Shown in pieces: positions 22,098 to 23,287 of a stretch of 32,004 nucleotides of DNA; position 1 is the first letter of the stretch; each line of letters starts with the position of its first letter. This stretch comes from Escherichia coli (GTDB taxonomy: Bacteria; Pseudomonadota; Gammaproteobacteria; Enterobacterales; Enterobacteriaceae): assembly GCF_003334815.1 (NCBI RefSeq), contig NZ_QOWO01000042.1. One strand, given 5' to 3'. A program made the position numbers and the translations under genes. The notes under the pieces are model-generated. The model was not told the DNA's origin, did no database searches, and saw only the letters and a program-made list of their open reading frames with translations.

Positions 22098-22333
22098 TTT
22101 TTCTTCCTCTAATTATATGTAAATCCTATGGATTTTGAATTTAGGGAAGGCGGCAAGTTTATTCATCCCCGGGAGCTTACTGAAGTAAGTGACCGGGGTG
22201 GAGAAACGCAGCCAACGCACCATAAATTTAAAAGACGAAGGATTTTAGCCGTCCAGATGTTTACACATCCATAATTGGCGGTTACTGTATATTCCTCAAG
22301 CGCAAATTATTCATGCCGAAGTGAAGGACTTTC
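22098..22333. promoter_or_regulatory. Divergent metE/metR control region (promoters plus MetJ/MetR operator elements)
   Basis: 236-bp AT-rich spacer between divergent metE and metR; contains candidate tandem met boxes AGCCGTCC-AGATGTTT-ACACATCC (~22247-22270) and a TGAAggactTTCA dyad (~22322-22334). Confidence 0.6.
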
Positions 22334-23287
22334 ATGATCGAAGTAAAACACCTGAAAACGCTACAAGCGTTGCGGAACTGCGGCTCGCTCGCAGCCGCTG
22401 CGGCGACGTTGCATCAGACGCAATCCGCCCTGTCTCACCAGTTTAGCGATCTGGAACAACGCCTTGGCTTCCGGCTATTTGTGCGTAAGAGCCAGCCGCT
22501 ACGCTTTACACCGCAGGGAGAAATCCTGTTGCAACTGGCAAACCAGGTACTGCCGCAAATTAGCCAGGCCCTGCAAGCCTGCAATGAACCGCAGCAGACG
22601 CGTCTGCGCATTGCCATTGAGTGCCATAGCTGTATTCAGTGGCTGACACCCGCGTTAGAAAATTTCCATAAGAACTGGCCGCAGGTAGAGATGGATTTTA
22701 AATCGGGCGTGACATTTGACCCGCAGCCCGCCTTGCAACAGGGAGAGCTGGATCTGGTAATGACGTCCGATATTCTGCCGCGCAGTGGCCTGCATTATTC
22801 GCCGATGTTCGACTATGAAGTGCGTCTGGTGTTAGCACCTGACCATCCACTGGCGGCGAAAACGCGAATTACACCGGAAGATCTCGCCAGCGAGACGCTA
22901 TTAATTTATCCGGTGCAGCGTAGTCGACTGGATGTCTGGCGGCATTTTCTTCAGCCGGCAGGCGTCAGCCCGTCACTGAAAAGCGTCGATAACACCTTAT
23001 TGTTGATTCAGATGGTTGCCGCGCGGATGGGTATTGCCGCGCTACCGCATTGGGTAGTAGAGAGTTTTGAGCGCCAGGGTCTGGTGGTGACCAAAACCCT
23101 GGGCGAAGGCTTGTGGAGCCGACTGTACGCCGCCGTGCGCGATGGCGAGCAGCGTCAGCCAGTTACGGAAGCGTTTATTCGCTCAGCGCGCAATCACGCC
23201 TGCGATCATCTGCCGTTTGTGAAGAGCGCGGAGCGACCCACTTACGATGCACCCACAGTGAGGCCAGGATCACCAGCGCGCCTGTAA
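22334..23287 (+). CDS. metR: LysR-type transcriptional activator MetR, 317 aa
   Basis: [63 protein letters not shown]... HTH N-terminus, recognised as MetR. Confidence 0.95.

What the first reader, a model, noticed from the sequence alone, without database searches (positions are those of the whole stretch)
22247..22334. Candidate MetJ met-box triplet and MetR-consensus dyad upstream of and overlapping the metR start
Three tandem 8-mers AGCCGTCC-AGATGTTT-ACACATCC match the AGACGTCT met-box consensus at 6, 6 and 5 of 8 positions, placed where the metR promoter should lie. Separately, TGAAggactTTCA (perfect TGAA-N5-TTCA MetR half-site arrangement) overlaps the metR SD and ATG, which could be an autoregulatory site or coincidence with the SD sequence.
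Basis: inference. Interest (0 to 1): 0.3.

Follow-up and report, generated by a model that had tools for sequence, protein, structure and literature searches.

The report
Known metE–metR operator: MetJ and MetR sites
The flagged sequences are the textbook control region between the E. coli methionine genes metE and metR, holding the already catalogued binding sites for the repressor MetJ and the activator MetR, so the finding is correct but ordinary.

Summary
Both observations are real and sit at the stated coordinates. The window is E. coli. metE is 19836-22097 (-) and metR is 22334-23287 (+).

**MetJ site.** AGCCGTCC-AGATGTTT-ACACATCC (22247-22270) is letter for letter the three-metbox site that Augustus & Spicer 2011 list for E. 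coli K-12 metR and metE. Re-running their matrix finds it as the only site in the 32 kb window (21.06 bits). None of 300 shuffles produced a comparable site.

**MetR site.** TGAAGGACTTTCA (22322-22334) overlaps the metR ribosome-binding sequence (SD) and ATG. Its main role concerns the other gene. The published metE transcription start (NC_000913.3:4012885) maps to window 22265, so the dyad centre lies at -63 of metE. A weaker dyad (22301-22313) lies at -42. These match the -63 and -41 MetR sites reported for E. coli.

**Position of the metboxes.** They span -5 to +19 of metE and cover the candidate metR core promoter.

**Conservation.** The 90-bp core aligns without indels in 80 Enterobacteriaceae species. 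The dyad half-sites never change, and the metboxes vary only at positions the matrix tolerates.

**Verdict.** This is an already known shared operator. Interest is low.

The parts
22247..22254 (.). Metbox 1 (AGCCGTCC). It lies at +12 to +19 of metE.
   Evidence: 6/8 to consensus and 7.25 bits. Listed in PMC3228920 Table S1. In 80 species it varies only as AGACGTCC, AGCCATCC, GGACGTCC, GGACGTCT or AGACGTCT.
22255..22262 (.). Metbox 2 (AGATGTTT). It lies at +4 to +11 of metE.
   Evidence: 6/8 and 9.34 bits. The only variant seen is GGATGTTT, in 7 of 79 distinct sequences.
22263..22270 (.). Metbox 3 (ACACATCC). It lies at -5 to +3 of metE and contains the metE start site.
   Evidence: 5/8 and 4.47 bits. 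Position relative to the start site.
22265..22265 (-). Major metE transcription start site.
   Evidence: SMRT-Cappable-seq in M9 medium gives NC_000913.3:4012885 with 5666 reads (PMC6131387 Suppl. Data 1). Mapped to the window.
22271..22276 (-). metE -10 hexamer AATTAT, at -11 to -6.
   Evidence: Read from the sequence relative to the mapped start. Positions 2 and 6 of the hexamer are invariant in 80 species. The assignment is an inference.
22294..22299 (-). metE -35 hexamer TTGAGG, at -34 to -29, with a 17-bp spacer.
   Evidence: Nearly invariant columns. The assignment is an inference.
22301..22313 (.). Weak MetR site 2 (CGCAAATTATTCA, 6/8). Its centre is at -42 of metE and it abuts the -35 hexamer.
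   Evidence: Found; position. It matches the published IR2 at -41. Most variation across species falls in the central N5; the first T of the right half-site changes in 6 of 79 distinct sequences.
22322..22334 (.). MetR site 1. It is a perfect TGAA-N5-TTCA dyad (15-bp form GTGAAGGACTTTCAT, 22321-22335) with its centre at -63 of metE.
   Evidence: It matches the published IR1 at -63. The half-sites are invariant in 80 species.
22325..22336 (+). metR ribosome-binding sequence AAGGA (22325-22329) and start codon ATG (22334-22336), embedded in MetR site 1.
   Evidence: Read directly from the sequence. The ORF start and MetR equivalog run from residue 1.
22246..22275 (+). Candidate metR core promoter: TAGCCG, 18 bp, CATAAT. 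The -10 reads TATAAT in 29 of 79 distinct sequences. An alternative is TTTACA (22260-22265), 17 bp, TACTGT (22283-22288).
   Evidence: Inference from sequence and conservation. No metR start site is present in the data I could read. Either candidate is overlapped by the metboxes.
22334..23287 (+). metR coding sequence.
   Evidence: NCBIfam NF011950, 741 bits. RefSeq annotation.
19836..22097 (-). metE coding sequence.
   Evidence: NCBIfam NF003556, 1192 bits. RefSeq annotation.

Best explanation
Window 22244-22336 is the shared control region of the divergent E. coli genes metE and metR.

**MetJ repression.** Three tandem metboxes (22247-22270) form one MetJ operator. With its corepressor S-adenosylmethionine, MetJ binds as an array of dimers, one per 8-bp box. 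The array covers -5 to +19 of the metE promoter and the core of the overlapping metR promoter. One operator therefore represses both genes.

**MetR activation of metE.** MetR is a LysR-type activator that responds to homocysteine. It binds the perfect dyad TGAAGGACTTTCA (site 1, centre -63 of metE) and a weaker dyad next to the metE -35 hexamer (site 2, centre -42). From there it activates metE transcription.

**metR autorepression.** Site 1 lies downstream of the metR promoter, over the metR SD and ATG. The two promoters also share their -10 region on opposite strands. MetR binding can therefore lower metR transcription as well.

**Status of each step.**
- Shown here: the sequences, their statistical uniqueness, their positions relative to a published experimental metE start site, and their conservation.
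- Taken from the literature: that MetJ and MetR bind and regulate in this region.
- Inferred: the exact metR promoter hexamers, and whether autorepression works by roadblock or by promoter competition.
For: - **Identity of the locus.** The sequence is 100% identical to E. coli K-12-type genomes, with metR and metE annotated there. MetR and MetE equivalog models match.
- **Metboxes.** The 24 bp equals the published three-metbox entry for b3828 and b3829. It is the only site in the window passing the published matrix, at 21.06 bits. None of 300 shuffles produced a site of that strength.
- **Literature on MetJ.** At least two adjacent boxes are needed for repression. The known E. coli met genes were tested by reporter and gel shift. 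A metJ knockdown raises metE expression.
- **metE start site.** 4012885 maps to window 22265. This places the boxes at -5 to +19, site 2 at -48 to -36 and site 1 at -69 to -57.
- **Published MetR positions.** Centres of -63 and -41 and the consensus ATGAA-N5-TTCAT are reported for E. coli. Salmonella DNase footprints show two tandem sites with consensus TGAAnnTnnTTCA. On the metE strand, site 1 reads TGAAAGTCCTTCA, which fits that consensus.
- **Conservation in Enterobacteriaceae.** 80 species show no indels from -90 to +3. The TGAA and TTCA half-sites are invariant. Most of the site 2 variation falls in its central N5. The boxes vary only at positions 1, 3, 5, 6 and 8.
- **More distant relatives.** Proteus keeps the boxes and a 7/8 dyad at the same place. 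Aeromonas keeps the three boxes, with a perfect dyad exactly 30 bp from box 3. Ralstonia has a dyad but no metboxes. This fits the paper's statement that the MetJ regulon occurs in five orders of gammaproteobacteria.
- **Direction of MetR control.** MetR activates metE in minimal media. MetR represses its own transcription.
Against: - The primary footprinting papers (Cai 1989, Urbanowski & Stauffer 1989, Wu 1995, Maxon 1989) are not in the library. Protection of exactly these bases therefore rests on secondary summaries plus coordinate matching.
- PMC5002191 states that two MetR sites have not been shown experimentally in E. coli itself.
- The whole 90-bp core is highly conserved among the 80 species, all with at least 90% MetR identity. 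Conservation alone separates binding sites from promoter elements only weakly.
- The dyad motif is not significant window-wide: 2 copies against about 0.6 expected.
- No metR start site was available.
- The published IR2 centre is -41, whereas I place it at -42.
Confidence: 0.93

Rival explanations
1. The TGAA-N5-TTCA dyad is a by-product of the metR ribosome-binding site and start codon (AAGGA...ATG) and is not a protein-binding site.
For: - The dyad contains the SD and the A of the ATG, so translation signals alone would keep part of it conserved.
- The motif is short and occurs by chance about 0.6 times per window. A second, non-functional copy sits in yigL.
Against: - Its centre falls at -63 of the mapped metE start, with a second dyad 21 bp closer. 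This is the published MetR geometry.
- The leading TG and the TTC are not needed for the SD or ATG, yet they are invariant in 80 species.
- Aeromonas and Ralstonia keep perfect dyads in the metE-metR spacer away from the metR start.
Confidence: 0.03
2. The resemblance to metboxes is incidental. The 24 bp is conserved only because it holds the metE start site and the metR -35 and -10 elements, and MetJ acts elsewhere or indirectly.
For: - The boxes match the consensus at only 6, 6 and 5 of 8 positions.
- They coincide with core promoter elements, which would be conserved anyway.
Against: - It is the only site in 32 kb that passes the published matrix, and no shuffle reaches it.
- Substitutions across species often move toward the consensus. 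Examples are AGACGTCC and AGACGTCT, with totals up to 26.4 bits.
- The same three boxes are kept in Aeromonas, where the flanking sequence differs.
- The site belongs to the curated known set, and the paper that lists it tested the known E. coli met genes by gel shift and reporter assay.
Confidence: 0.03
3. Site 1 serves only metE activation. metR autorepression does not depend on MetR sitting over the metR SD and ATG as a roadblock. It arises because MetR-recruited RNA polymerase at the metE promoter occludes the overlapping metR promoter.
For: - The metE -10 (22271-22276, - strand) and the best metR -10 candidate (22270-22275, + strand) occupy the same base pairs.
- In Aeromonas and Ralstonia the dyad is not over the metR start, so the overlap with the start codon is not universal.
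Against: - Nothing here separates the two mechanisms.
- The literature available to me says only that MetR binding to the tandem sites activates metE and represses metR.
Confidence: 0.3

Closest known systems
The E. coli K-12 / Salmonella Typhimurium metE-metR control region itself (MetJ common operator plus MetR sites 1 and 2)
   Same: - The sequence is identical to K-12.
- The 24-bp metbox string is the same as published.
- The -63 and roughly -41 MetR site positions are the same.
- Salmonella has the identical dyad at the identical offset.
   Different: Nothing differs. This is the same locus.
Other MetJ operators of the met regulon (metA, metBL/metJ, metC, metF, metK, metNIQ)
   Same: All are tandem in-phase 8-bp AGACGTCT-like repeats of 2 to 4 boxes in the catalogue excerpt read here, and all pass the same matrix. 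The metE/R and metBL/metJ operators are shared by two divergent genes.
   Different: This one has three rather degenerate boxes, 21 bits in total against 31 for metB/metJ. It lies on the start site of one gene and on the core promoter of the other.
LysR-type divergons with a strong distal site near -65 and a weak site next to the -35 hexamer (gcvA-gcvB; MetR at glyA-hmp)
   Same: There are two tandem dyads about 21 bp apart. The distal one is better conserved. The regulator gene is divergent and autorepressed.
   Different: The distal site here also encodes the regulator's own SD and start codon. A second repressor, MetJ, shares the region.

Membership tests
MetJ operator (metbox array) | Two or more adjacent, in-phase 8-bp repeats resembling AGACGTCT | tested here: met
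   Three contiguous boxes match at 6, 6 and 5 of 8 positions.
MetJ operator (metbox array) | Passes the published information-weight matrix: each box at least one quarter of the consensus score, and the total at least the consensus score | tested here: met
   The boxes score 7.25, 9.34 and 4.47 bits, 21.06 in total, against a consensus score of 12.58. It is the only such site in the window. None of 300 shuffles reach 3 boxes and 21 bits.
MetJ operator (metbox array) | Overlaps the promoter or start site of a methionine-regulon gene | tested here: met
   The boxes span -5 to +19 of the mapped metE start. They also overlap both candidate metR promoters, which is an inference.
MetJ operator (metbox array) | Conserved in species that have MetJ | tested here: met
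   75 of the 80 Enterobacteriaceae loci keep a triplet of at least 19.3 bits; two score 18.5 and two only 13.0 bits, with a degenerate third box, and one locus was not scored. Proteus and Aeromonas also keep the triplet, and it is absent in Ralstonia.
MetJ operator (metbox array) | Direct binding of MetJ with S-adenosylmethionine, and repression in vivo | not testable with these tools
   Literature only. metE/R is in the known-metbox set, and the known E. coli met genes were tested by gel shift and ONPG assay. A metJ knockdown derepresses metE.
MetR (LysR-type) binding site | Interrupted dyad TGAA-N5-TTCA, which also fits the LysR-type T-N11-A motif | tested here: met
   A perfect 8/8 dyad lies at 22322-22334. 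On the metE strand it reads TGAAAGTCCTTCA, which fits TGAAnnTnnTTCA.
MetR (LysR-type) binding site | A strong site near -65 and a weaker site abutting the -35 hexamer of the activated promoter | tested here: met
   The centres fall at -63 and -42 of the mapped metE start. The published values are -63 and -41.
MetR (LysR-type) binding site | Located in the spacer of a metR-target divergon and conserved across species | tested here: met
   The half-sites are invariant in 80 species. Dyads are also present in the Proteus, Aeromonas and Ralstonia spacers.
MetR (LysR-type) binding site | Protection by purified MetR, and loss of activation when the site is mutated | not testable with these tools
   Salmonella footprints and mutants are available only as summarised in PMC5002191. 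The primary papers are not held.

The most novel reading that the evidence does not exclude
The only reading with any novelty concerns the triple use of one 13-bp sequence. It is the MetR activator site for metE, the metR SD and the metR start codon. In Enterobacteriaceae this might let DNA-bound MetR act as a transcriptional roadblock over its own translation start, a mechanism distinct from the promoter competition usually assumed. It might also explain the absolute invariance of the site. My evidence does not exclude this, and it does not single it out either.
Probability: 0.1. Interest if true: 0.15.

Novelty: already known. Interest (0 to 1): 0.05.

Why it matters
The metE-metR region is a classic example of two regulators sharing one compact divergent promoter: a corepressor-dependent repressor (MetJ with S-adenosylmethionine) and a LysR-type activator (MetR with homocysteine). 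The sites are already catalogued. The only useful addition here is a coordinate map. It ties the published metbox list, the published -63 and -41 MetR positions and a genome-wide start-site measurement to the same bases.

Tried and rejected
- **Primary footprint papers.** I tried to read PMC287278, PMC176813, PMC210406, PMC286408, PMC176623, PMC1462706, PMC4909240 and PMC110999. None is held.
- **Dyad string in the literature.** A full-text search for the exact dyad found only unrelated primers. The supplements of PMC4239095 and PMC5002191 do not give the site sequences.
- **Literature searches that gave nothing useful.** Searches on ERIC plus metE and on FnrS plus metE were unproductive.
- **Start-site tables.** The stored Cappable-seq table (PMC4782308) is cut long before 4.0 Mb. 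No metR start site appears in the SMRT-Cappable-seq tables.
- **Rfam.** There are only two sub-threshold hits (Ysr49 and V_AS5, about 27 bits against gathering scores of 95 and 96). Both lie over the repeat element, not the operator.
- **Consensus promoter scan.** It returned three minus-strand hits. None is the promoter that matches the mapped metE start, and none lies on the metR strand.
- **Rejected ideas.**
  - A fourth metbox at 22239-22246 (AGGATTTT). Summing the matrix values by hand gives about -1.9 bits, and the matrix scan did not extend the site to it. That region also differs between alleles.
  - The second dyad at 24226 as a MetR site. It is not conserved.

Full report
**What is there.** The window is Escherichia coli. 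The 451 bp around the finding is 100% identical to many complete genomes, including K-12-type strains, and carries the metR and metE annotations (MG1655 annotation). The ORF at 22334-23287 (+) is MetR (NCBIfam equivalog NF011950, 741 bits, cutoff 382). The ORF at 19836-22097 (-) is MetE (NF003556, 1192 bits). The two genes are divergent and separated by a 236-bp spacer (22098-22333).

**Check of the observation.**
- AGCCGTCC is at 22247-22254, AGATGTTT at 22255-22262 and ACACATCC at 22263-22270. They match AGACGTCT at 6, 6 and 5 of 8 positions.
- TGAAGGACTTTCA is at 22322-22334. It contains the metR SD (AAGGA) and ends on the A of the ATG.

**Metboxes against chance and against the literature.** Augustus & Spicer 2011 (PMC3228920) published a metbox weight matrix and thresholds. 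Their Table S1 lists, for E. coli K-12 metR (b3828), [quoted passage not shown]. For metE (b3829) it lists the reverse complement at 149 bp.

I re-implemented the matrix. In the whole 32,004-bp window only one site passes the published thresholds, namely 22247-22270 at 21.06 bits. Dinucleotide-preserving shuffles give 0.27 passing sites per window. None of 300 has at least 3 boxes and at least 21 bits. By plain identity it is also the only in-phase triplet with at least 17 of 24 matches. The same paper states the following:
- metE/R belonged to the known E. coli metboxes used to seed the matrix.
- Repression needs two or more adjacent boxes.
- The known E. coli genes were tested with lacZ fusions and gel shifts.

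A CRISPRi study also found metE derepressed by metJ knockdown.

**Where the promoters are.** SMRT-Cappable-seq (PMC6131387, Supplementary Data 1, M9 medium) records a metE transcript starting at NC_000913.3:4012885 with 5666 reads. It also records a minor start at 4012920 with 31 reads. An exact alignment of the window to MG1655 maps these to window 22265 and 22230.

Relative to that start site:

| Feature | Window coordinates | Position relative to the metE start |
|---|---|---|
| Three metboxes | 22247-22270 | -5 to +19 |
| -10 hexamer AATTAT | 22271-22276 | -11 to -6 |
| -35 hexamer TTGAGG | 22294-22299 | -34 to -29 |
| 6/8 dyad CGCAAATTATTCA | 22301-22313 | -48 to -36 (centre -42) |
| Perfect dyad | 22322-22334 | -69 to -57 (centre -63) |

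PMC5002191 independently places the two E. coli MetR sites at -63 (IR1, better conserved) and -41 (IR2). It gives the consensus ATGAA-N5-TTCAT. It also summarises Salmonella DNase I footprints and mutants that define two tandem MetR sites with consensus TGAAnnTnnTTCA. On the metE strand, site 1 reads TGAAAGTCCTTCA, which fits that consensus.

It happens to lie over the metR SD and ATG.

**metR promoter (inferred).** No metR start site was in the data I could read. Two candidates exist on the + strand:
- TAGCCG (22246-22251), 18 bp, CATAAT (22270-22275). The -10 becomes a perfect TATAAT in 29 of 79 distinct sequences.
- TTTACA (22260-22265), 17 bp, TACTGT (22283-22288).

The metboxes overlap either one.

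**Conservation.** A scan of one genome per species returned 80 Enterobacteriaceae loci with 90-100% MetR identity.
- From -90 to +3 of the metR ATG, all 80 align without a single indel.
- The TGAA and TTCA half-sites of site 1 never change. The only variable column in site 1 is the last base of N5.
- In site 2, most of the variation sits in the central N5, as expected for a dyad-binding protein. The first T of its right half-site also changes in 6 of 79 distinct sequences.
- In the metboxes, changes are confined to box positions 1, 3, 5, 6 and 8. They often move toward the consensus (AGACGTCC, AGACGTCT). 75 of the 79 scored loci total at least 19.3 bits; two total 18.5 bits and two only 13.0 bits, with a degenerate third box.
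- Conservation stops abruptly at 22244, immediately left of box 1.

More distant relatives came from chromosomes filed among the plasmid records.
- Proteus mirabilis (69% MetR identity) has the same three boxes and a 7/8 dyad over the metR ATG.
- Aeromonas caviae has the same three boxes and a perfect dyad exactly 30 bp beyond box 3. That is the E. coli site-2 position, well away from the metR start.
- Ralstonia has a perfect dyad at -36 of metR and no metboxes.

The dyad is therefore a feature of the metE-metR control region and not a side effect of the SD. By contrast, the second perfect dyad in the window (24226) lies in the yigL coding sequence and is TGCA...TTCA in most other species.

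**Mechanism.**
- Shown here: positions, uniqueness and conservation.
- From the literature: MetJ with S-adenosylmethionine binds tandem metboxes and represses metE and metR. MetR with homocysteine activates metE and represses its own gene.
- Inferred: one MetJ array blocks both promoters because it sits on the metE start and on the metR core promoter.
- Inferred: MetR at -63 and -42 recruits RNA polymerase to the metE promoter.
- Inferred: metR autorepression comes from MetR sitting downstream of the metR start, or from polymerase at the metE promoter occluding the metR -10, which uses the same base pairs. I cannot separate these two.

**Caveats.**
- The primary footprint papers are not in the library. 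Base-level protection therefore rests on secondary sources plus coordinate agreement.
- PMC5002191 notes that site 2 lacks direct evidence in E. coli.
- The 80 species are close relatives, so conservation has limited resolving power.

**Verdict.** One correction applies: the dyad is primarily the metE activator site. This is the already known metE-metR operator and has no novelty.

Noticed in passing
window 22098-22243 (repeat core 22168-22200): The metE 5' UTR carries an ERIC/IRU-like repeat with the inverted core ccccgggagcttac...gtaagtgaccgggg. It matches the ERIC2 and ERIC1R primer sequences at 17/22 and 16/22; I recalled those primers from memory. Its presence is polymorphic. Only 2100 of 5426 complete E. 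coli genomes have this long spacer. The rest match only 22244-22333. The break point is exactly at the left edge of metbox 1.
   Followed up: partly
L002-L081 and L085, upstream of locus position 1200: Across 80 Enterobacteriaceae species the metE-metR spacers fall into two length classes: 107-123 bp without the repeat, and 228-262 bp, mostly with it. K-12-type E. coli and Salmonella share the long allele. Other E. coli, E. whittamii and Pseudocitrobacter share the short allele. This suggests either an old polymorphism kept across species or repeated exchange.
   Followed up: partly
window 22230 (- strand): A minor metE 5' end (31 reads against 5666 at the main start) falls at NC_000913.3:4012920, in the 5' UTR close to the repeat element. 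It could be a weak internal start or a processing product.
   Followed up: no
window 24226-24238: A second perfect TGAA-N5-TTCA (TGAAGGTCTTTCA) is 12/13 identical to the MetR site. It lies in the 3' end of the yigL coding sequence, about 150 bp upstream of bioP. Its left half-site is TGCA in most other species, so it looks like chance.
   Followed up: yes
window 22112-22139 (- strand): A strong promoter-like match (TTCAAA, 16 bp, TATAAT; 10/12) lies immediately upstream of the metE SD. No start site supports it in the SMRT-Cappable-seq table.
   Followed up: partly
window 22119-22293 (+ strand): Sub-threshold Rfam matches to Ysr49 (Yersinia sRNA 49) and V_AS5 score about 27 bits, against gathering scores of 95 and 96. 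They coincide with the repeat element. Those families may be built on related repeat copies.
   Followed up: no
L083 (Aeromonas caviae), -161 to -95 of the MetR match: Aeromonas has the same three metboxes. Its perfect MetR dyad occupies the promoter-proximal position, 30 bp from box 3, and the distal position is degenerate. This is the reverse of the strong and weak order in E. coli.
   Followed up: partly
window 23175-23287: The convergent genes metR (+) and bioP/yigM (-) overlap by 113 bp at their 3' ends, as in the MG1655 annotation.
   Followed up: no
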